Source: the human T2T-CHM13v2.0 reference genome, Homo sapiens. Taken from it: a stretch of DNA of 64,000 nt. The position numbers were made by a program, and so were the translations under genes. Below the pieces are notes generated by a model that was not told the origin of the DNA, made no database searches, and saw nothing but the letters and a program-made list of their open reading frames with translations. The stretch covers positions 21,056,001 through 21,120,000 of the forward strand of contig CP068257.2 of NCBI GenBank assembly GCA_009914755.4, written 5' to 3'. This document shows positions 4,294-54,344 of the stretch, one piece after another. Each line of letters starts with the position of its first letter. Position 1 is the stretch's first letter.

Positions 4294-4648
4294 ATGATAT
4301 AGTGTGGCTCTGTGTTCCCACCTAAATCTCATCTCAAATTGTAATCCCCAGGTGTCAAAGGAGGGGCCTAGTGGGAGGTGATTGAATCATGGGACAGTTT
4401 CCCCCATGCTGTTCTCATGTTAGTAACTGAGTTCTCACAAGACCTGGTGCTTGGCAGTTCCCCACCAACCCCACCCTCCTGCTGCCATGTAAGACATGCC
4501 TCACTTCCCCTTCACCTTCTGCCATAATTGTAAGTTCTCTGAGGCCTCCCCAGCATTGTGGAACTGTGAGTCAATTAAACCTCTTTTCTTCATAAATTAC
4601 CCAGTCTCGGGTAGTTGTTTATAGCATTACGAAAATGGACTAATACAG
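4294..4648 (+). mobile_element. MaLR LTR, THE1/MST family (5' LTR of a partial element)
   Basis: tgatatagtgtggctctgtgttcccacctaaatctcatctcaaattgtaatcccc...ggaggtgattgaatcatggg...gccataattgtaagttctctgaggcctccccagcattgtggaactgtgagtcaattaaacctcttttcttcataaattacccagtctcgggta...ggactaatacag. Confidence 0.85.
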
Positions 4649-5390
4649 AAAATTGGTACCAGGAAAGTGGGGCACTGCCAAAAAGATAACTGAAAATGTA
4701 AAAGTGACTTTGGAACCGGGTAAGAGGCAGAAGTTGGAACAATTTAGAGGGCTCAGAAGAAGACAGGAAAATGTGGGAAAGTCTGGAACTTCCTAGAGAA
4801 TCGGAGGGCTCAGAAAACAGGAAGATGTGGGAAGGTTTGAAACTTCCTAGAGACTTACTACATGGCTTTGACCAAGATGCTGACAGTGATATGGACAATG
4901 CAGTCCAGGCTGAGGTGGTCTCAGATGAAAATGAGGAACTTACTGGGAACTGGAGCAAAGGTCACTCTTAACTATGTTTACACTTTGTCCCTGCCCTAGA
5001 GATCTGTGGAACTTTGAACACGAGAGAGATGATTTAGGGTATCTGGGAGAAAAAATTTTGAAGCTGCAAAGCATTCATTCAAGAAGTTCCCTGACTGTTC
5101 CTAGCAGTGTACAGTCAAATGCATTCACAAGGATGGTCTGAAATTGGAACATGTTTAAAAGGGATGCAGAGCATAAAAGTTTGGAAAGTTTGCAGCTTGA
5201 CCATGTGGTAGAAAAGAAAACCCCATTTTCTGGGGAGAAATTCAAGTTGACTGCAGAAATTTGCAGAAGTAAAGAGAAGCAGAATACAAAGACAATGGGG
5301 AAAATGCCTCCAAGGCATGACGCAGACCTGCACAGCAGCCCCTCCCATCACAGACCCACATTTTCTGTGTTATTAATACCCTATTCAAAG
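4649..5390 (+). mobile_element. MaLR (THE1/MST) internal region following its LTR; contains an about 48-bp tandem duplication (4755-4850)
   Basis: aattggtaccaggaaagtggggcactgcc...aaaatgtaaaagtgactttggaaccgggtaagaggcagaagttggaac...gaaaatgaggaacttactgggaactggagcaaaggtcac, which is the typical MaLR-internal start right after the LTR. Confidence 0.7.
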
Positions 5391-6068
5391 TTCATAAAAG
5401 CTAACTAAATCTTCTTTAATCGTCCACTTAATTCTGAAATATAATTTAGAAATAGTTGAGAGTTAGCTGTACATCTGTATACCAATCCTATATATACTTT
5501 GTATGCACTAATATATAAAGTATATGACTGTCTGTAGAGATAGATAGAATATGTAATCATTACTTGATGTTCTACTACCTGCCAGCTGGCATGACTAGCA
5601 AGAGATAGTTTTATATTACTTTTACATTTTTTATTCCAATGAGAACTTGATAATAAAGACAACCAAATAGTCATTACATAGATGCAAACAAGCATAATAA
5701 CTTCTCTAGTAATCTTTCTTTATTTTGGTGTTACAGTTTATTTTATGTACCTTCCCATAATTGTAGTCTGTTTTATATTTAATTTTTCTTCTATGCCTCT
5801 TAATTACACGAGTCTCTTGGAATACAATTTTAGTCCTATAAAAATTCTCTTCAAATTATTACCTAATAAAAGGAGGTTTGAAGTGTGTGCAGTCAGAAGA
5901 ATGTGAAGCCATAAGCAGAAGAAGGAAGTCCTATTTTTAAGTTAAAAAAGTCTATGTATTTTTGACAAATATTTCAAATTAGTTTCATCCTTGGTAATTT
6001 GGGATGTATTTATAATATCCATGGAAATATTCGTAAGTATATCACTTAAGTTACATTTTATTTTATTT

Positions 6069-6477
6069 TAGATTGGAACTAATACAATATTACCATAATC
6101 TGTTTAAGATTCCTATAAATAAATTATATTCCTATAATTTATAGGAATACTTATGGAATATAATTAATTCCTATAAATAAATTATATTCCTATAATTTAT
6201 AGGAATACTTATGGGAATATAATTTATTCCTATAAATAAATACAATAATTATTTATAGATTATTATAAATAAATTATATTTTATGTAATTTATTAAAATT
6301 ATAGAAATGTCCTATAAATAAATACAATAACATAGATTCCTATAAATAAATTATATTATATATAATTTATTAAATTCATAAGAATTTCCTATAAATAAAT
6401 ACAATAATTATTGTATTGTATTAGATTGGAACTAATACAATATTACCATAATCTGTTTAAGATTCCTATAAATAAAT
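6069..6477. repeat. AT-rich palindromic minisatellite: about 57-bp units (core cctataaataaat) in about 7 degenerate copies, bounded by a 56-bp direct repeat at 6069-6124 and 6421-6477
   Basis: The string agattggaactaatacaatattaccataatctgtttaagattcctataaataaat occurs twice about 352 bp apart; the internal units contain inverted repeats attcctataa/ttataggaat. Confidence 0.8.
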
Positions 6478-7762
6478 AGTATGTGACTGATAAGTGATAT
6501 TAACTCGTTATCATATGCAACCCATAAATGTACGGATGTCTAATTAACATATTTACAGTCATAATCTTCTCTGTATTAGATAAAAATTAAAAAATCTAAT
6601 TTTTGATTGTCAAGGTAACAACCAGAAAAGTAACAGAAATAATGCATAAATACATTGCCAATAACATATTCTTTGTATTTTACTTTGTATTTGTGCTTAC
6701 ATGAAAATTAAAATAAACATGTTATATTAATAGTTATAAATTACATTTTTGTTGTAACTGAAGTATTGATTTCTTTTATCTCTTAAAATTAAAAAAAAAG
6801 ACAGTTTAATGCCTCCATACATGTCTTTCATTCACAGATATTGGTATAACTTCTCAAAAATGTAAACATGCAGACAGAGGAGAGGAAACTGTAAAACATA
6901 CTCATCACAAGTAATCACTACTCATTATCTAAGCATTTTCTTTTTCTCAGAAATATCTTTAATCCAGCTTTATAAAAATGACATTGATTATATTATAAAA
7001 TGATATTGATAGTGATTTTATTTGTTAAACTCTAATAGCTAAAATAGAGTTTAAAAATTGTAAAAATCAGTACTAAGCAAATTGTTTAATTAAGGTAATT
7101 TGTTCTGAAAATACATTCTTTGTGATGATTATTTTTCTAATTATTGCCTAGATCTATGTTGTTTAATAGAACCTTTTTTTTACTATATAAATACAAATTT
7201 ATACTTAGAATAGCTAAATAGTAAGAACTCTAAAGTCATGGCCTTCAAATATACTTAATACATTTTGCCATGCATATTAAAAATACTAAAACATACTGTA
7301 AAATATTTTGTATTTTATTTTAGTGGATAGTTATATAACCCAAAAGGAATAAGGTAAGCTATAATGGATTTGTCTGTAAGTGCTGGAAGGATTTTTATCT
7401 GAAGCTGCTGGTATTATAAGAAAAGAACTTTTATGTGTGTTATCTCATGAAGTTTATATAAAAGAATAAAACATAGATTGAAGTAAATACCACTGTAAAC
7501 AAAAGAGGATCCTTTCAACTTAGAATTCTTATCAAAATATATGAGTACACTAAGGAAACTAAAAAGTAAAAACTACATGTATTTATGAAGGTTCAAGTTC
7601 TTTAAATTTTGAATTTTTGAATGGTATACTATAGATACAAACCAAAGAACAAAAACTAAAATTACCATTTGAACCATCAATTTCATTTCTGCGTATATAT
7701 CCGAAGGAAAAGAAATTTAAAAATTAATTAGAAATTAATTAGAAAAAATTAATCTACCAAAG

Positions 7763-7789
7763 GAAAACAAAACAAAACAAAACAAAACA
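7763..7789. repeat. (AAAAC)n microsatellite
   Basis: ggaaaacaaaacaaaacaaaacaaaacac. Confidence 0.8.
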
Positions 7790-8275
7790 CTTGCATTCAT
7801 ATGTTTACTTCAGCACTATTCACAATAGCAAAGACATGGAATCAACATAGGTATTCATCAACGGTTGATTGGATAAAGAAAATGTGGTACATACACACCA
7901 TAGAATACTACACAGCCATAAAAAAGGACAAGATCATATTCTTTGCAGCAACATGGATCAACTTGAGGCTATTATCCTAAGTGAATTAACTCAGAAATAA
8001 AAAGTTAAAGACTTCATGTTCTCACTTAGATGTGGAAGCTAAGCATTGGGTAGACATGAACATAAGGATAGAAACAATGAACACTGGGGACTCCAAAAGG
8101 AGGGGGAGATGGCAGAGGGCAAGAGTTGAAAAACTACCTCTTGGGCACTATGTTCATCATTTAGGTGACAGGTTCAGTGGAAGCCCAAACCTCAGCTTCA
8201 CACAACATATCCATGTAACAAACCTGCACAAGTACCCTCTGAAATCAATATTTTAAAAATCAACAATTTTTAAAA
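7790..8275 (+). mobile_element. L1 (LINE-1) 3' end fragment: ORF2 C-terminus plus 3'UTR, older primate L1
   Basis: tattcacaatagcaaagacatggaatcaacat...gataaagaaaatgtggtacatacacaccatagaatactacacagccataaaaaaggacaagatcat...ggagggggagatggcagagggcaagag...catgtaacaaacctgcacaagtaccctc. Confidence 0.85.
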
Positions 8276-10010: not shown

Positions 10011-10727
10011 TTGACATCACTAATCATCAGAGAAATGCAATCCAAAACCACAATAAGATACCATCTCACACCAGTCAGAATGGCTATTATTAGAAAGTCA
10101 AAAAATAACAAATGCTGCCAAGGTTGCAAAGAAAAGGGAACACTTACATACACTGCTGATGGAAGTGTAAATTAATTCGGCCACCATGGGAAGCATTTGC
10201 CCCAACAATCTCATTATTGGGTATATACTCAAAATACAAATGGTTCTACCATTAAGATATTTGCACATGTATGTTCATCACCGCATTATTCACAATAACT
10301 AGGACATAGAATTAACCTAGATGCTGATCAATGGTAGACTGGATAAAGAACATGTAATACATATACACCATGGAATACTATGCAGTCATAAAAATGAATG
10401 AGATCATGTCCTTTGCAGCAACGAGCTGCAGACCATTATCCTAAGCAAACTAACATTGAAACAGAAAACCAAATACCTCATGGTCTCACTTATAAGTGAG
10501 AGCTAAACACTGAGTCCATATGGAGAGAAAGAAAGGATCAATAGATATTAAGGATCTGCTTGAGAGTGAAGAGTGGGAGGAGGGTGGGTACTGACAAACT
10601 ACCTATTGGGTACCATGCTTATTACCTGGGTGACTAAATAATCTGTACACTAAACCCCCACAACACATAATTTACCTACTTCTCAAATCTACACATGCTT
10701 CTGTGAAACTAAAAGTTAAAAAAAATT
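10011..10727 (+). mobile_element. L1 3' end fragment (ORF2 C-terminal region plus 3'UTR), old L1P/L1M-type
   Basis: catcactaatcatcagagaaatgcaatccaaaaccacaataagataccatctcacaccagtcagaatggctattattagaaagtc...tattcacaataactaggacatag...ggataaagaacatgtaatacatatacaccatggaatactatgcagtcataaaaatgaatgagatcatgtcctttgcagcaac...ctcacttataagtgagagctaaacac. Confidence 0.85.
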
Positions 10728-33593: not shown

Positions 33594-34173
33594 TCATTGT
33601 GATATACCATCTTACTATTTATTTATATTCAGCCTCTCACTTGTGCTGCATTACACTGCCTAAATCCTCCCTCCAAAACTGCAGAAACTAACCCCTGAGC
33701 TTCTGGGATTGTCCTCTATCAGACCTAAATTCATGTCTCATTTCTGAAAAGCAGCTTTCATCCAATTACTGGTGGATATGTAGTTTTAAAAGCCCAAATG
33801 AATCTCTCTGACAAACAAAATATATGAAGGGATATCCCAGCTCCTGAGTACTCCTATGGTTTTACAAAGGTCTTGCTATAATTAAAATGTAGCACTACTT
33901 TTCTTCTGCCCAGTTATACTTCTGTTATTTTCTCTCACAAATATTGATCATAAGGTCATTCCCTAGTAAATTTCCTTCAAACTTATGTTTCCAGGGAACC
34001 TGATCTGCAACATTAAATAATAATATTTGTATGTATGAAGGCTGTACATCTGAGCTAGAGATATGATGGTCTCTGTGGCCATGCCTGCAAAAACTAACAT
34101 TTACTATTACAAAGGTTATTTTAAAATATGGTTCATAATTTTAATTATATTTAAATCATATGATATATCTAGG

Positions 34174-34237
34174 TAGACAGATACATAGAGATAGATAGAT
34201 AGATAGATAGATAGACAGATAGATAGATAGACAGATA
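34174..34237. repeat. (GATA)n / (TAGA)n tetranucleotide microsatellite with GACA interruptions
   Basis: gtagacagatacatagagatagatagatagatagatagatagacagatagatagatagacagatac. Confidence 0.9.
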
Positions 34238-44519: not shown

Positions 44520-44878
<359 letters not shown>

Positions 44879-45515: not shown

Positions 45516-46339
45516 CTGTCCCAGATATGAATCTTATTATCACTTTATTCACATAATTTCTAATTGTCTTTTTACATCACCTAGTAATTCTCACTTGATG
45601 TTAGCTTTTATTAAAAAAGCAGAAACATGAGAAGAATTTTAGGTATGGCAGCATTGGATTTGAGTCTGAGTGCACTAAGAATCATGTTAACAGCTGTAAA
45701 AACCTGGAATAGCTCTGATCAATACCCTAATAGTCAACTAGTAAATATGGGCGAGGCTATTAGTGGTTATTCTTTGTAGCCACCGGATTAATGTGGTTAT
45801 TTCTCACAATTCATTCTGAGCATTTTATACCTCCAGCAGTGAAATAATCATTGGGTATAAAAATGGCCTGTGTGAAGCTTTCTAATTTTGTCCTCTTCTA
45901 CTTTGACTGGTTTCATATGTGATGATTGCCCACTATAAATAAAGGTTATTCATTCTTTAATGTAAAAATATACAGTACTGTTAGTAAATTGATTTGAAAT
46001 ACATAAGAATTTGAAATTTACCTTGAATTTTTCAAATGCTATATTTTATACATCTTTTATGATTGAATCTAAACTACTTGACAAAACTTGCTCACAAAAA
46101 AGGAAATTATGTTAACAAGATAGCCTATTTACTACAAAAGAATATGCAGAAAGTAGGGGAAATAAACAGAAGAAAATAATCAAGTACATAGTTATCCATA
46201 AATAGAATATAAGTCCACATAATACAATTTGAAAATGTTAGATTGTGCAAGTTTTTGTAAAAGCTAAGACCAATTAAGTGCTCACAAATTAGAATAAGAC
46301 AGTGGGAAGGGGATCTTTTTAAGAATGTATTATTGTTTA

Positions 46340-46603
46340 TGATATATATATCATTGATATATATATCATTGATATATATATCAAAGATATATATATATCA
46401 ATGATATATATATCAAAGATATATATATCATTGATATATATATCAAAGATATATATATCAATGATATATATATCAAAGATATATATATCAATGATATATA
46501 TATATCAAAGATATATATATCAATGATATATATATCAAAGATACATATGTATCAATGATATATATATCATTGATATATATATATATCTCAATGATATATA
46601 TAT
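46340..46603. repeat. AT-rich tandem array of about 30-bp units built from the perfect palindrome tcattgatatatatatcaatga (about 8-9 copies)
   Basis: tgatatatatatcattgatatatatatcattgatatatatatcaaagatatatatatatcaatgatatatatatcaaagatatatatatcattgatatatatatcaaag... Confidence 0.9.
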
Positions 46604-47485: not shown

Positions 47486-50400
47486 AATAATGGAGCTGAT
47501 TTACCAATAGTGGAAACATAAAACCACTAAAATGCATTTTATTTTTTCAATAGACAGTAGACTACTCTTTATATATATATTTTTAAATATATGAATACAT
47601 AATAGTTGAAAAAATTTATGAGGCACATGTGATATTTTGATACAAACATACAATGATTAATGATCAAATCAGGGGACTTAGAATATCCATCACCACAAAA
47701 AGTTATCATTTGTTTGTGTTAGGAACATTCTAATTCCAATCTCCTAGTTATTAATATATTGAAATATACAGTAACTTATTTGTAACAAGAGCTGCCCTAT
47801 TGTTCTACTAAACACTAAATCTTATTTCTTCTATCTAATTGTGTCTCAGTACTTGTTAACTGACCCCACTTTATCCCTCCCCTACTACCATTCCCAGCCT
47901 CTAGTAATGATCATTCTACTACCTCCATAAGATTACTTTTTTTAGCTACTACACAGAAGAGAGATCACGTGAATATTTGTCTTTCTGTGCCTGGCTTATT
48001 TTGCTCAACATAATATCCTCCAATTCCATCTCTGTTCTTGCAAATGATAGGACTGTTTATTTATGGCTGAATAATTTTCCATTGTGTACTACAATATGTA
48101 CCACATTTTATTTATTTATTTATCTATCCACACATGGACACATAGGTTAATTCCATATCTTGGCTACTGTGAACAGTGCTTGCAACAAACATAGGGGTTC
48201 AGATATCTTTTTATACAGTGATTTGTTTTCTTTTGGATACATACCCAGCAGTTGGAATGCTGGATCCTATAGTAGTTCTGTTATTAGTTTTTGGAGGGAC
48301 CTCCCTTCATACTGTTTTACATAGTGGCTGTACTAATTTACACTCCCACCAACAGCACACTAATCTGTTTGGATTAAACATTAGTAGATGAATACTGAGT
48401 GCTAACGTCAAAATTGTAAGATGCAGCCATAGGTGGAGGGAAATGAAGAAAATATGTAGGGATTTTTAGCGGTATCAAATGGTCATCAGAGAGTATTTGA
48501 AGGTAGTTAATCTTCTACTTTTGGATATTGAAAATTAGAATTGAATCTGCAAGTAATGGAAGTCAATTGAAATGTTTTTGAATAACCTATTTGTAGTATA
48601 TGATAAATAATCAATTCTTTTGATTACAAACCTATGATTTAAAGTCTTCCTTATCATGTGCTTTTGACACATTCAGAAAATTCACATAATTATTTTCTCA
48701 GATAAATTATTCCTTTCAATAGAGTTTTAAAAGTTTATAAAGTTAGATGAATTTCCAACATTAGGAAGTTAACTAACTTTCAACAGGCATTGATAGCAAC
48801 TAATAATTTACACTAACTCTTCAACCTGACTTAAAATGACTGATGTATTCCAATTACCTTTCCTTTGACTGTCTTAAGCTATATACATTCATATATATAG
48901 ATAGACACACATCACAATAGTCAACATGGTTGATCTCATGCGCACACACATATGCAAATTTTCTTTTTCCTTTTTTGTGGGTTTGTATTTTTCTGATTTG
49001 TTTGTCTTCTCTGTCTTCTTAAAACATGTTTTATATTTTAAAAGCCCTTTACTGTGTTTCCTATTACTATTACAATTTTATTACTTTTTGTTGATGCTAT
49101 GTTGTTATTTTAGTCATATGTTTGATACTTAATATTATTCACATCTAACTATAGATCATTTGAAAACATGGATCATTAATGATGACATGTTTAGTATAAT
49201 TAACTACATTAAGTATATTGATTCCTATACCTCTAATGTTAGTTTTAAAATGCAGAAACATTCTATAGTTGCACCCTAAAACAGAATAAGTAGACTTTAG
49301 GGCTTGAAGTTATATGGTCTTCAGTTTTGTGTAAGTATTTTTTCTTATCACCATTTAAACTCTTTCATGTATTTTGAGTTTCATGATTTTATACTTGACA
49401 GGTACATTCTCCTCCATACATAGGCATGGAAAGGTGTGCCAATCAGAAAGCAGGAATAAATGTATGAAACTGATGATGCCTTTGATGCCATGCATGCAGT
49501 ACTCCACCAGACAAAAATGAAAACACATCAAACACCAGATGACAAGGTAAGTTAACAGAAGTACTTCTCAATGGGAAGGGATTAAGTTTTTCTTCTGAAG
49601 ACCCAGAGTGATGGCTGTTTTGACTCCTGGTATCAAAACGACCAAACTGAATAAAAGGGTCAAAGTATTAAATATGTACTCATTTCATGTTCCCAAAACT
49701 GTTAAGTTCATGCAGGAGAACTTTAGCCATAATTTGAATCTGAAGGACACTATTGCAGTTTAAATATTTCTCAATCCTTCAGTAAATGATAATATTCAAG
49801 TAAGTATGTGCCTACCTTCTCAAAGATAGTGCTTGTACTTTGTAAATGTCCAATAGTATGATTTCCTATGAGATACATGAGATTATTACTATTGACACCA
49901 CCATCATATGTAGGTGCATAGAGCCACACTTTGATGTTTGACCTGAAGGAGAACCAAAAAAAATGAATAAATAAATTTTAGAATGTTTATTTTGTCTTCA
50001 AAATTTATGTAAAGATGTTCTGGTGGGATGTTGTTTGAAGCATCACAGGATCCCTTCTGCTCGAGTTTGCCATTTTCCTACCTCCAACACTCATATTTGC
50101 TTATCCATACAGTGATGTTATTACAAATTTAAGAGTAGCCAAAACACAATGGCAAATATTTGCCAAGGTAACTTGTCTGGTTTTCTCATAAAGGTACATT
50201 ACTATTAAGTCTTTACATTACAACCATACTGCCACTGAATATAGCATTTAAAGCGAAATGTATAAAAAGAGATTACCATTCTAATTTCAGTAAATTTGAT
50301 ATATAACAAATAAATATAATAGAAGCTTTTGAACAAAGCTGAATAAATACAATAGAAGATTTTGAAGAAAGCTGTTTCTGATGTAATAAATATAAAATTA

Positions 50401-52048
50401 ACTATGAAATCATTTCATAAACATATCTCATAATAGCAGCCATGTGGCTTCTTAATTAGAATATAAAACATTAACATATTAATAATTGAAAAAATCATTA
50501 GCTTTCTAATTGAAAAAACTGTAAATAAAGATTGGCACTTTTATGTTTCACATTGTTTTTAAAACGCTGATAAACATATTTTCATAGAAAGGTCTATATA
50601 CAAAATATCTTAAAACATGCAAAGTTTGTATATTGAAATAACTTTTCAGGAAATAAATTTTCTATTTAAATCATGAATGCCTTCTGTGGCCTTAATGTCA
50701 ATATCTTTAAGCATTTCTTGAGTTGATTTACATTTTTAACACAAATTTATTCTGAAACATATATAATACCTGTAAAAAATTTTGAACAACTGACTTGAAA
50801 ACACTCTTGTTGTATCACTTATTTCCTGTTGTTATCAAAATAAGTAATGAACTGGAAATTGCATCTGCCAGTATAATAAATGTATTATACCAAAAAGGTT
50901 AACTTGTTTGAATAAAAAATTACTATTATAAAATATGTTGGTGCACAATTCTGGACCTATTTAAATTTATACATACAAATATTAATAATAGTAATGATTT
51001 TAAGTGCAAAAAGACAAAGCTCATAACAGAAGTTGATGAAGGACATAAGACATTTCAGGTAATGATTTTCATAATAAAGTCTTATTTTTACACTGGTTTA
51101 CTAATTTATCATACAAACTTGGAAAAACCTTATCATGTACTGTGCACATAAGTGTCATTATTTATTGAAAAAGAGTGAATGAATAAACAAATAAAAACTG
51201 ATGAAGAAAATTTAATTAGGGTAATGACATATTGACACCTATTCTAAATTCTCACACATTGATTATTAAATCTTAAAGAAATTCCTGTTTTTAAATTATG
51301 AAATAAAGTGTTTTTTGCTAATATTTGATAATGCTTTATTTTCCTTACTTATTCAATGTTGTGTTTCCTCAGAAGATAATTTAAGAATGTAAAATTCAAC
51401 ACATTGAGTAACAGGGAATTGTTTGGTTTACTCTACACTGTAAGCTGCATGTGTACCAGATAGTTATATAAAATTACAGCTTTTGAGGTGGAGGAATCAA
51501 AATATCTTATTTTTTAATACTTAAAACACATAATTGGTCTCTATATAAGAAACACTAGATCAATAAATAATAAATTAGTGTTTTCTTGTTTTTGGAAAAC
51601 AATAAGGAAATAAGGTTAAACATTTTTAATCATTGCCCAAACATTTTCATTTCATTTGATACATAGTATAGTGTTAAACTCATTTGTTAACACATAATGA
51701 TTTTTTTCCTCTAATTCAAAAATGATTTTTCGTATATATAGAAGTAATGACTGGTTTTAAAATTTATATTACTAAATATAATAATGTAGTGTTGAAATAT
51801 CAGTATATGTAATATACAATGGAATTTCAAAACCTGAGACATATTTCAGTCCTCATATTTTCTTGTCAATTTATAGGACACCTTTTCAGCTATATAATTA
51901 TTAATATAAGATCCATCTAATTATAACATAATAACTTCTTTGCTATAGCTTATACATATATATCAAAGCATATTTATAAGGTAAACAAACTAAAACAAGC
52001 ATATAAATATGTAATAATATTTTATAAAACACTTCAAAGAGAGGTAAA

Positions 52049-52230
52049 GAACATCACACACCGGGGCTTGTTGTGGGGTGGGGAGGTGGGGAGGGATAGC
52101 ATGAGGAGATATACCTAATGTTAAATGACGAGTTAATGGATGCAGCACACCAACATGGCACATGTATACATATGTAACAAACCTGCACGTTGTGCACATG
52201 TACCCTAAAACTTAAAGTATAATTAAAAAA
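52049..52230 (+). mobile_element. L1PA (older primate L1) extreme 3'UTR fragment with short A tail
   Basis: gaacatcacacaccggggcttgttgtggggtggggaggtggggagggatagcatgaggagatatacctaatgttaaatgacgagttaatggatgcagcacaccaacatggcacatgtatacatatgtaacaaacctgcacgttgtgcacatgtaccctaaaacttaaagtataattaaaaaaa. The GAG at the diagnostic 3'UTR triplet and ttaaagtataat indicate a pre-L1HS subfamily. Confidence 0.85.
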
Positions 52231-53157
52231 ACACATAAGATTAATGTGGTGATAAAATATTACACTGATGATAAAGGACTTTTTTGAGAGATCAATAATT
52301 GTCCAATGAGAATCAAGAATTGAAGTATGTCATCAATGTTTTTTTCTAAAAATATACTTTCTGAAAACTTATTTGCCATACATTACGTTAACTGCTAAGC
52401 AGCAACTAAAAAATATATTATCTGCTCCTCAAGAGCATAAAAACAAGGAACTAAGTATTTGCAGGCATACACAAGCATTTTGAAAGGGCCATACTACATA
52501 CCAAAAGCATCATAAATGCATTTTGTTGAAGAATTATGAAAGTAATGCTATTGTGATTGAAAACATAATCTAATGTTTAAACCACAATTTGATTTAGCAA
52601 AAAATAAATAAATAAAATAAAGTAATGGGAGATTCATTATCTAGAAACATGTACAGTATTTTTTCAATAATTTAAGCATATTTTTCATTTTGTTGAAAGG
52701 TAATTTACATAGCATCAATGTATTAAATCAATTTGAAGAAATATTAAACAGAACATTTTATTTTTCTATCATACTAAATTAGAAAATTAGATTTGTAGCT
52801 TATATTTCTAATATTCTTAATTAAATATACCTGGTTTAGATATTAAACATACTGGATTAGAAAAAAGTGTGCAATAAAATACTGCCAAAATTTTACTACA
52901 ATGATTAAAATAGTTCAATGATCTACACATTCCAAATTTTTTTTCAATTTAACTGAGAGAATTGTCTCTTATCCTCTCTGAAGAGGTTTTATTGTAAATT
53001 CCACATTTTTGCTTCTGAAGAAAAAATAATTTCTTCACTGAATAAATGTTTTAGGTTCTGATTTTGAATAAGATGAAGTAACTCACAGCAGATCAAGAAC
53101 AACTGAAAAATGCAGATGAAAATTCAAGAATAGTCTCTCTTTAAAAATAAGATAGCT

Positions 53158-53313
53158 ACATTTTCTTAATCCAGTCTATCATTGTTGGACATTTGGGTTG
53201 GTTCCAAGTCTTTGCTATTGTGAATAGTGCCGCAATAAACATACGTGTGCATGTGTCTTTATAGCAGCATGATTTATACTCATTTGGGTATATACCCAGT
53301 AATGGGATGGCTG
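53158..53313 (-). mobile_element. L1HS-like insertion, inverted 5' segment from a twin-priming event (ORF2 C-terminal sequence on the minus strand)
   Basis: acattttcttaatccagtctatcattgttggacatttgggttggttccaagtctttgctattgtgaatagtgccgcaataaacatacgtgtgcatgtgtctttatagcagcatgatttatactcatttgggtatatacccagtaatgggatggctg is the reverse complement of L1 ...ccattactgggtatatacc...gcaaagacttggaaccaacccaaatgtcc...gattaagaaaatgt. Confidence 0.85.
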
Positions 53314-53693
53314 TGGCACATATACACCATGGAATACTATGCAGCCATAAAAAATGATGAGTTCATATCCTTTGTAGGGACATGGATGAAATTGGAAACC
53401 ATCATTCTCAGTAAACTATCGCAAGAACAAAAAACCAAACACCGCATATTCTCACTCATAGATGGGAATTGAACAATGAGATCACATGGACACAGGAAGG
53501 GGAATATCACACTCTGGGGACTGTGGTGGGGTCGGGGGAGGGGGGAGGGATAGCATTGGGAGATATACCTAATGCTAGATGACACATTAGTAGGTGCAGC
53601 GCACCAGCATGGCACATGTATACATATGTAACTAACCTGCACAATGTGCACATGTACCCTAAAACTTAGAGTATAATAAAAAAAAAAAAAAAA
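53312..53693 (+). mobile_element. L1HS-Ta-like 3' segment (end of ORF2 plus 3'UTR plus about 20-nt poly-A), direct-orientation part of the same twin-primed insertion; 15-bp TSD aaaaataagatagct
   Basis: tgtggcacatatacaccatggaatactatgcagccataaaaaatgatgagttcatatcctttgtagggacatggatgaaattggaaaccatcattctcagtaaactatcgcaagaacaaaaaaccaaacaccgcat...ggggactgtggtggggtcgggggaggggggagggatagcattgggagatatacctaatgctagatgacacattagtaggtgcagcgcaccagcatggcacatgtatacatatgtaactaacctgcacaatgtgcacatgtaccctaaaacttagagtataataaaaa...; ACA at the diagnostic 3'UTR triplet; TSDs at 53143-53157 and 53694-53708. Confidence 0.85.
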
Positions 53694-54344
53694 AAAAATA
53701 AGATAGCTGCCTAGGTAACCAGAGACTGAGGGGCCAAGTTGCTGATGAGTAGGAAGCTTCGGAGTAAAGAATTGATTTTATTGGGCTCATTTTCTCTTGA
53801 ATCTTCTCCAAACTTGGTGGAAAAACCACTGAACATCCACCCAAAGATTGCACACAGGAGGGAGCTGCTTTTACAATATTAAAGAGCTAGAAAGACAAAT
53901 TGAAGATCAGACCTGTAAAGCAACGAGGACTTGAGTAGGCAAGATATTGGAAGAAACAATGAACTGAAAACTTACAAGTGATTGGGACATTGCAGAGCAA
54001 TGGGAAGGTTAACTTCTTTAATGCCAATGCAAATGGGAACTGAAATTGTTAAAATTCAGTATCTGGAACAAATAATTTTAAATAATAAAAATTAACCATT
54101 ATAGCATATAAATTAAATCAATGTATAAGCATCAAAATTGCTTTGTTTAAATATTTCTGCAATTATGCCTGAGGTTTAAAATCCTGTATATAAAATAAAC
54201 AACCAAGAAACATTCATAATTCAGTTTTAAAGACACAATGTGTTTGTATATTTTAATATTATAACAGCATGTTTTTGGACTGTCCTGACTTTTTCTGCTT
54301 GAAATTATTTTAAAAACTTTTAAAGAGTATCGTAACTTGCTATT

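What the first reader, a model, noticed from the sequence alone, without database searches (positions are those of the whole stretch)
53143..53708. Young L1HS-Ta-like insertion with a textbook twin-priming inversion and intact 15-bp TSDs
Seen in sequence. A 156-bp L1 ORF2 segment on the minus strand (53158-53313) is joined, through a 2-3-nt microhomology (tg/tgt), to about 380 bp of L1 3' end plus poly-A on the plus strand (53312-53693). In L1 coordinates the inverted piece ends at ...aagaaaatgt, exactly where the direct piece begins (tgtggcacatatacacc...). That is the geometry expected from twin priming during target-primed reverse transcription (established knowledge). The whole insertion is flanked by identical 15-bp TSDs aaaaataagatagct (53143-53157 and 53694-53708) and shows very few differences from the L1HS consensus as I recall it. 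The diagnostic 3'UTR triplet reads ACA (gatgacACAttagt), which I recall as the human-specific Ta-subfamily state. By contrast the nearby older L1 fragment at 52049-52230 has GAG. Inference: this is a recent, human-specific insertion and could be polymorphic in the population.
Basis: partly seen in the sequence, partly recalled or inferred. Interest (0 to 1): 0.6.

Follow-up and report, generated by a model that had tools for sequence, protein, structure and literature searches.

The report
Young human L1 insertion, 5' inverted
This is a short, dead copy of the youngest human LINE-1 subfamily (L1HS Ta-1) whose front end was flipped during insertion by the well-known 'twin priming' process; it is real and cleanly preserved, but about 30% of human-specific L1 insertions look like this.

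Summary
An exact 15-nt direct repeat (53143-53157 and 53694-53708) brackets 536 bp of L1. Bases 53158-53313 are antisense L1 encoding ORF2p residues 1173-1223 (51/51 identical to solved ORF2p). Bases 53312/53314-53677 are sense L1: ORF2p 1224-1275, the stop codon and the whole 3'UTR, followed by a pure A-run. The two pieces are adjacent in L1 coordinates, with 1-3 nt duplicated and nothing deleted, and they join through a 2-nt TG microhomology. The target site reads TTATTTTT/AAAGAG on the bottom strand, a canonical L1 endonuclease site. Only two private G>A changes remain in about 520 nt. This fits twin priming during target-primed reverse transcription and rules out two independent insertions or fold-back synthesis. 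Human specificity follows from the subfamily assignment. Polymorphism could not be tested with these tools. Such elements are common, so interest is low.

The parts
53140..53147 (-). L1 endonuclease first-strand cleavage site. The bottom strand reads 5'-TTATTTTT/AAAGAG-3', with the nick opposite 53142/53143.
   Evidence: Read from the sequence. It matches the 5'-TTTT/A(A) preference quoted in PMC2837659 and PMC2912911. The exact nick position within the A-run is ambiguous.
53143..53157 (.). 5' copy of the target-site duplication, AAAAATAAGATAGCT. Its 3' end (..AGCT-3'OH on the top strand) is the inferred primer for the second, inverted cDNA.
   Evidence: Exact 15/15 repeat. Chance 8e-9 at a fixed register.
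53158..53313 (-). Inverted L1 segment of 156 nt, covering L1 nt about 5505-5660 in the numbering where ACA is 5930-5932. It encodes ORF2p 1173-1223. It carries the Ta-1 diagnostic T (window 53282) and G (window 53279), read on the minus strand.
   Evidence: 51/51 aa identical to PDB ORF2p. Antisense L1 match endpoints against 52 references. Diagnostic states.
53312..53313 (.). Inversion junction: the 2-nt microhomology TG, shared by the end of the antisense piece and the start of the sense piece.
   Evidence: Base-by-base comparison with intact L1 copies. BLAST HSPs overlap at 53312-53321.
53314..53472 (+). Direct L1 segment: the ORF2 C-terminus (aa 1224-1275) and the TGA stop codon. It includes a private G>A at 53462 that gives G1273D.
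   Evidence: 51/52 aa identical to PDB ORF2p. The G>A is absent from all young reference copies.
53473..53677 (+). Complete L1 3'UTR. It has ACA at 53584-53586 and G at 53669 (both Ta states), a private G>A at 53592, and the AATAAA signal at 53675-53680.
   Evidence: A published L1Hs-specific 40-mer probe matches 53546-53585 exactly.
53678..53693 (+). Uninterrupted poly(A) tail. The A-run is 21 nt (53678-53698); 16 A's lie before the TSD and 5 are shared with it.
53694..53708 (.). 3' copy of the target-site duplication, AAAAATAAGATAGCT.

Best explanation
A single L1HS Ta-1 RNA was inserted by endonuclease-dependent target-primed reverse transcription, with twin priming. The steps below marked 'shown' are read from the sequence; the order of events is inferred from the published model.

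1. ORF2p nicked the bottom strand at TTATTTTT/AAAGAG (site shown).
2. The T-run primed on the poly(A) tail. The first cDNA copied the 3'UTR and the end of ORF2 back to L1 nt about 5658-5660 (extent shown).
3. The top strand was nicked 15 nt downstream (shown by the TSD).
4. Its 3' end (..GATAGCT-3') annealed internally to the same RNA just 3' of nt 5660 (inferred).
5. It primed a second cDNA that copied nt 5660 back to 5505 in the opposite orientation (extent shown).
6. After RNA removal, the 3' ends of the two cDNAs paired through TG/CA and were filled in and ligated (inferred).

The product is 156 nt of inverted L1, then 364 nt of direct L1, then A(16-21), flanked by one 15-nt TSD. The element is 5'-truncated, non-coding and immobile. 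It has no mechanism of action beyond being an insertion allele.
For: - One exact 15-nt TSD flanks the composite element. There is no TSD or A/T-run around either piece alone.
- The pieces correspond to ORF2p 1173-1223 (inverted) and 1224-1275 (direct), so they are contiguous on the template.
- At base level, 1-3 nt are duplicated, nothing is deleted, and the junction microhomology is 2 nt.
- The inverted piece is the upstream L1 part and sits at the 5' TSD, as the model requires.
- The cleavage site is canonical, and a pure poly(A) tail directly follows AATAAA with no transduced sequence.
- Both pieces carry states of one subfamily. T and G (Ta-1) are in the inverted piece; ACA and G (Ta) are in the direct piece.
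- The inverted piece has no private differences. The direct piece has only two.
- The TSD length falls in the 14-16 bp peak reported for 5'-inverted L1.
Against: - The 5' junction has no strict microhomology. Window T53157 faces an L1 position that would need C. Only 4.6% of 5'-inverted L1s lack one by strict counting. The terminal GCT could still pair with RNA GGC as two Watson-Crick pairs plus one G:T wobble, but that much pairing is easily got by chance.
- No empty-site allele or orthologous ape sequence could be obtained, so the pre-insertion site is reconstructed, not observed.
- No Ta-1 DNA copy was present among the 160 reference loci. The count of 'private' differences therefore rests on Ta and pre-Ta consensi of only 3 and 4 copies, plus the ORF2p protein sequence.
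Confidence: 0.93

Rival explanations
1. An ordinary 5'-truncated L1HS insertion of about 536 bp, whose first 156 bp were later inverted by an independent genomic rearrangement.
For: The end product would look the same. Nothing in a single allele gives the timing of the inversion.
Against: One breakpoint would have to fall exactly at the L1/TSD boundary. The other would have to leave a 1-3 nt duplication of L1 sequence, whereas a simple inversion duplicates nothing. No inverted repeats flank the 156-bp segment to mediate it. Twin priming yields this architecture in about 30% of human-specific L1 insertions.
Confidence: 0.03
2. Two independent L1 insertions, one minus-oriented fragment and one plus-oriented 3' end, landed next to each other or one within the other.
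For: The window does hold other L1 fragments nearby, for example 52035-52258.
Against: The minus piece lacks an L1 3' end and a poly(T) run, so it cannot be a TPRT insertion on its own. There is only one TSD pair, and it flanks the composite. The pieces abut at ORF2p residues 1223 and 1224. Both pieces carry states of the youngest subfamily and almost no private changes.
Confidence: 0.02
3. Fold-back (snap-back) synthesis or template switching by one reverse transcriptase created the inverted part, without a second target-derived primer.
For: Reverse transcriptases can switch templates. The 5' junction lacks a strict microhomology.
Against: Fold-back on the first cDNA would give an inverted duplicate of the same L1 region. 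Here the inverted piece is the adjacent upstream region, overlapping by only 1-3 nt. The antisense piece is joined directly to the 3' end of the top-strand TSD copy with no extra nucleotides, which is the position of a target primer.
Confidence: 0.02

Closest known systems
Twin-priming (5'-inverted) L1 insertions, Ostertag & Kazazian 2001, as summarised in PMC2837659 and PMC2912911
   Same: It has an inverted upstream L1 segment at the 5' TSD and a direct 3' segment with poly(A). One TSD of 15 nt flanks the whole element. The endonuclease site is TTTT/A-type. The inversion junction has a short microhomology and a small duplication.
   Different: Nothing essential differs. The 5' junction has no strict microhomology, which is a minority state (4.6% in Kojima 2010). 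The element is short, at 520 nt of L1.
L1HS Ta-1 subfamily (Boissinot 2000; Brouha 2003; classification rule in PMC12350158)
   Same: It has ACA at the 3'UTR triplet, G at the second 3'UTR site, and T and G at the two ORF2 sites. The encoded peptide reads ..YPNEYKS.., as in the ORF2p used for structure determination.
   Different: It is 5'-truncated and rearranged, so it cannot be a source element. The 5'UTR sites that split Ta-1d from Ta-1nd are absent. It has two private G>A changes.
Twin-priming variants with a 5' poly(T), and 'dual priming' (Meyer et al. 2010, PMC2837659)
   Same: They use the same TPRT framework with priming from both nicked strands.
   Different: Those loci carry an inverted poly(A) that reads as poly(T) at the 5' end. 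This locus has none: the second primer annealed inside ORF2, not in the tail.

Membership tests
L1HS Ta subfamily | ACA at L1 5930-5932 (5929-5931 or 5927-5929 in other numberings) | tested here: met
   Window 53584-53586 reads ACA. Rule from PMC6354063, PMC12350158 and bioRxiv 2024.11.07.619809. Only 3 of 144 reference copies share it.
L1HS Ta subfamily | G at L1 6015 (6012), read as TAG rather than TAA | tested here: met
   Window 53669 is G. It is A in 124 of 130 reference copies. Rule. The 85-nt spacing from the triplet matches.
L1HS Ta-1 | T and G at L1 5535/5538 (5536/5539); Ta-0 has G and C | tested here: met
   Reconstructed positions 32 and 35 are T and G (window 53282 and 53279, minus strand). 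The 394 and 391 nt spacings to the triplet match the published coordinates. None of about 70 reference copies has both.
L1HS Ta-1 | Insertion absent from the orthologous site in chimpanzee, gorilla and other apes | not testable with these tools
   No primate genome collection is available. Flank scans of the metagenome and genome collections found nothing.
Twin-priming 5'-inverted L1 insertion | Two segments of one L1 in opposite orientation within a single TSD pair, with the inverted segment at the 5' end and derived from upstream L1 sequence | tested here: met
Twin-priming 5'-inverted L1 insertion | Segments adjacent on the L1 template, with only a small deletion or duplication at the inversion point | tested here: met
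   The boundary is ORF2p 1223|1224. 1-3 nt (TGT) are duplicated and nothing is deleted. Both deletions and duplications are described for such events.
Twin-priming 5'-inverted L1 insertion | Microhomology at the inversion junction | tested here: met
   2-nt TG at 53312-53313. This is weak on its own, with a chance of about 1/16.
Twin-priming 5'-inverted L1 insertion | Microhomology or complementarity between the top-strand primer and the L1 RNA at the 5' junction | tested here: inconclusive
   The strict microhomology is 0 nt. Positions -2 and -3 (GC) match, and -1 (T) could form a G:T wobble. This is not distinguishable from chance.
Endonuclease-dependent TPRT insertion | TSD of typical length, a TTTT/A-type cleavage site, and a 3' poly(A) tail | tested here: met
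   The TSD is 15 nt (10-15 allowing for the A-run). The site is TTATTTTT/AAAGAG. The A-run is 21 nt and follows AATAAA.

The most novel reading that the evidence does not exclude
The insertion may still be segregating in humans as a presence/absence polymorphism. Its two private, non-CpG G>A changes on the sense strand might be scars of cytidine deamination of the first-strand cDNA rather than later mutations. Nothing here excludes this, and nothing here supports the editing part. Only one of the two sites (53592, GG context) fits an APOBEC3G-like motif.
Probability: 0.3. Interest if true: 0.2.

Novelty: already known. Interest (0 to 1): 0.1.

Why it matters
It matters little beyond annotation. 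It is a clean worked example of twin priming: every hallmark is intact and the subfamily markers are split across the two orientations. If polymorphic, it could serve as an identity-by-descent marker. Thousands of comparable L1 insertions, including 1,047 polymorphic twin-priming events in one recent cohort, are already catalogued.

Tried and rejected
- Finding the empty or filled site elsewhere: exact scans for the 3' flank in metagenome contigs and genome contigs gave 0 hits.
- Exact look-up of ten ORF products in the 15-billion-protein collection: none is on record. The ten were junction-spanning ORFs, a hypothetical empty-site ORF and flank controls. The look-up of encoding contigs was therefore pointless.
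- Searching the TSD, junction and empty-site strings in the supplements of the 1,019-genome SV paper, and in all held full texts: nothing.
- Placing the locus in a gene so as to reach primate orthologues:
  - no Rfam family in the window;
  - no ORF of 85 aa or more that looks coding;
  - no Pfam match at E<=0.01 in 117 non-repeat stop-free segments of 62 aa or more, concatenated into two queries.
- An L1 pattern scan of viral contigs: 0 hits.
- Reading Boissinot 2004 and Myers 2002 by PMC id: not held.
- A Ta-1 DNA reference could not be obtained. None of the 160 contaminant loci carries T and G at 5536/5539.

Full report
OBSERVATION. The repeat finder reports AAAAATAAGATAGCT at 53143-53157 and again at 53694-53708, 15/15 identical. 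With the window's base composition, the chance of identity at a fixed register is 8e-9. It is 2e-6 if the five leading A's are ignored, since they cannot be told apart from the poly(A) tail. Across the whole window this is the only exact run of 10 nt or more at that offset.

IDENTITY OF THE TWO PIECES. The minus strand of 53159-53311 translates to AIPLLGIYPNEYKSCCYKDTCTRMFIAALFTIAKTWNQPKCPTMIDWIKKM. This is 51/51 identical to residues 1173-1223 of human LINE-1 ORF2p in solved structures (8uw3, 8sxt, 9k6g; E about 6e-32). The plus strand of 53314-53472 translates to residues 1224-1275 followed by the stop codon, 51/52 identical, the one difference being G1273D. The inverted piece therefore ends at M1223 and the direct piece starts at W1224.

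DNA REFERENCES. No repeat library was available, so I took real L1 DNA from human contamination in public collections. There were 116 metagenome contigs matching a young-L1 3'UTR pattern. There were also 44 'bacterial' genome contigs matching the intact breakpoint region. I rebuilt the un-inverted element from the reverse complement of 53158-53313 plus 53315-53693. It aligns end to end with these copies and without gaps to the best ones (best: 98.9% over 531 nt).

JUNCTIONS. I compared both junctions base by base with 52 intact copies.
- Antisense L1 matches the window from 53158 to 53313. The next base would be G but is T.
- Sense L1 matches from 53312. The preceding base would be A but is C.
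- The inversion junction is therefore a 2-nt TG microhomology.
- The L1 trinucleotide TGT is represented in both pieces, giving a duplication of 1-3 nt. Nothing is deleted.
- At the 5' junction the antisense L1 abuts the TSD with no extra nucleotides and no strict microhomology. The last three target bases, GCT, could still pair with the RNA bases GGC as two Watson-Crick pairs and one G:T wobble.

TARGET SITE AND TAIL. The bottom strand at the target reads 5'-TTATTTTT/AAAGAG-3'. This fits the TTTT/A(A) preference of the L1 endonuclease. The 3'UTR ends with AATAAA (53675-53680). A pure 21-nt A-run follows (53678-53698), of which 5 A's are shared with the TSD. There is no 3' transduction.

SUBFAMILY. 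Setting the ACA triplet at L1 5930-5932 gives a single offset of 5504. That offset puts all the variable sites on the published diagnostic positions.
- The window has ACA (53584-53586) and G at 6015 (53669). These are the Ta states.
- It has T at 5536 and G at 5539 (53282 and 53279, minus strand). The 1,019-genome study gives these as the Ta-1 states, against G and C for Ta-0. Another study lists them among the canonical alleles of active L1s.
- The spacings of 394, 391 and 85 nt agree exactly in all three numbering systems.
- None of the roughly 70 reference copies covering those sites has T and G together.
- The Ta-1 markers lie in the inverted piece and the Ta markers in the direct piece, as expected if both were copied from one Ta-1 RNA.
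- A published L1Hs-specific 40-mer probe matches 53546-53585 exactly.

DIVERGENCE. Against the consensus of the ACA copies there are six differences.
- Two are the Ta-1 diagnostics.
- One (5713 A) encodes the Ile found in the solved ORF2p.
- One (5745 C) is a synonymous site split about 50:50 among all copies, and is C in the pre-Ta consensus.
- That leaves two private G>A changes, at 53462 (G1273D) and 53592. Elsewhere they appear only in old, unrelated copies.

Two changes in about 520 nt is 0.4%, with a Poisson 95% range of roughly 0.05-1.4%. That is young, but too imprecise to date the insertion, and either change could have been inherited from the source element.

MECHANISM. The anatomy is what twin priming predicts (model).
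1. The first-strand nick falls at the T-run, which primes on the poly(A) tail.
2. The second-strand nick falls 15 nt downstream.
3. The top-strand 3' end primes internally on the same RNA and makes the inverted cDNA.
4. The first cDNA runs up to the internal priming site.
5. The two cDNA ends join through a short microhomology.

The sequence shows the TSD, the cleavage motif, the tail, the orientation and adjacency of the pieces, and the junction microhomology. The order of events and the use of the top-strand end as primer are inferred.

RIVALS. Each fits worse.
- Two independent insertions would need a 3' end and a T-run for the minus piece, plus separate TSDs. Neither is present.
- Fold-back synthesis would duplicate the same L1 region in inverted form. 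The observed piece is the adjacent upstream region.
- A later inversion would need a breakpoint exactly at the L1/TSD boundary, and it would not duplicate L1 bases.

COMPARISON WITH WHAT IS KNOWN. 5'-inverted L1s make up 30.7% (344/1120) of human-specific L1 insertions. Their TSDs peak at 14-16 bp. A recent long-read survey found 1,047 polymorphic L1 insertions with such inversions, showing deletions or duplications at the internal breakpoint. Ta-1 is described as the youngest subset and is responsible for most new insertions in modern humans, whereas Ta-0 was mostly active more than 1.5 Ma ago. The element is therefore a typical member of two well-described categories. Its only slightly unusual trait is the lack of a strict 5' microhomology, seen in 4.6% of such elements.

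LIMITS. I could not test presence or absence in other humans or apes. Flank scans, exact ORF look-ups, and supplement and full-text searches all came back empty. The window gave no handle on a gene that might have led to primate orthologues. Human specificity therefore rests on the subfamily assignment plus established knowledge of Ta-1 age. Polymorphism remains open.

VERDICT. This is an already-known kind of feature and interest is low.

Noticed in passing
L117-L160 (genome contigs), e.g. L129, L143, L153, L155, L120, L127: 44 contigs filed under bacterial or archaeal species genomes contain an exact 36-nt human L1 ORF2 string. They include several JCM Streptomyces and Actinomadura assemblies, Mycobacterium sp. 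and assorted MAGs. Some are 5-7 kb contigs that align to L1 over their 3' ends. These are human contamination in representative prokaryote assemblies.
   Followed up: partly
window 53462 and 53592: Both private differences of this L1 copy are non-CpG G>A transitions on the sense strand. One is in a GG context and one in a GT context. Two events are too few to tell cDNA editing from ordinary mutation or inheritance from the source element.
   Followed up: partly
window 52035-52258: An older L1 3'-end fragment in plus orientation, with GAG at the diagnostic triplet and a short A-run (taattaaaaaaa). It lies about 0.9 kb upstream of the young insertion. Its own boundaries and TSDs were not examined.
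   Followed up: partly
window 46339-46582: An AT-rich tandem array: the 15-nt unit ATGATATATATATCA repeated about 16 times (higher-order period 62), in a region of 29% GC.
   Followed up: no
window 6109-6412: Two adjoining AT-rich tandem repeats (periods 58 and 77, about 2.3 copies each) with internal palindromic TATAAATTTATA-type motifs. Local GC is 23.5%.
   Followed up: no
window 4747-4853: A 54-nt unit present in 1.9 tandem copies (86% identical), inside a 122-aa stop-free stretch on the minus strand (4590-4958). No Pfam match.
   Followed up: no
window 7757-8092, 10014-10725, 47585-48355 and about 20 intervals of about 300 nt: Further intervals match the contaminant human contigs. The 300-nt ones are Alu-like: Alu 5' consensus hits at 19620-19655 and 44843-44878. 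The longer ones are probably other L1 pieces. This fits an AT-rich, repeat-dense primate region with no evident exon.
   Followed up: partly
window 34170-34237 and 60743-60783: Tetranucleotide microsatellites: (TAGA) about 17 copies, and (AGAT) about 10 copies, the latter perfect.
   Followed up: no
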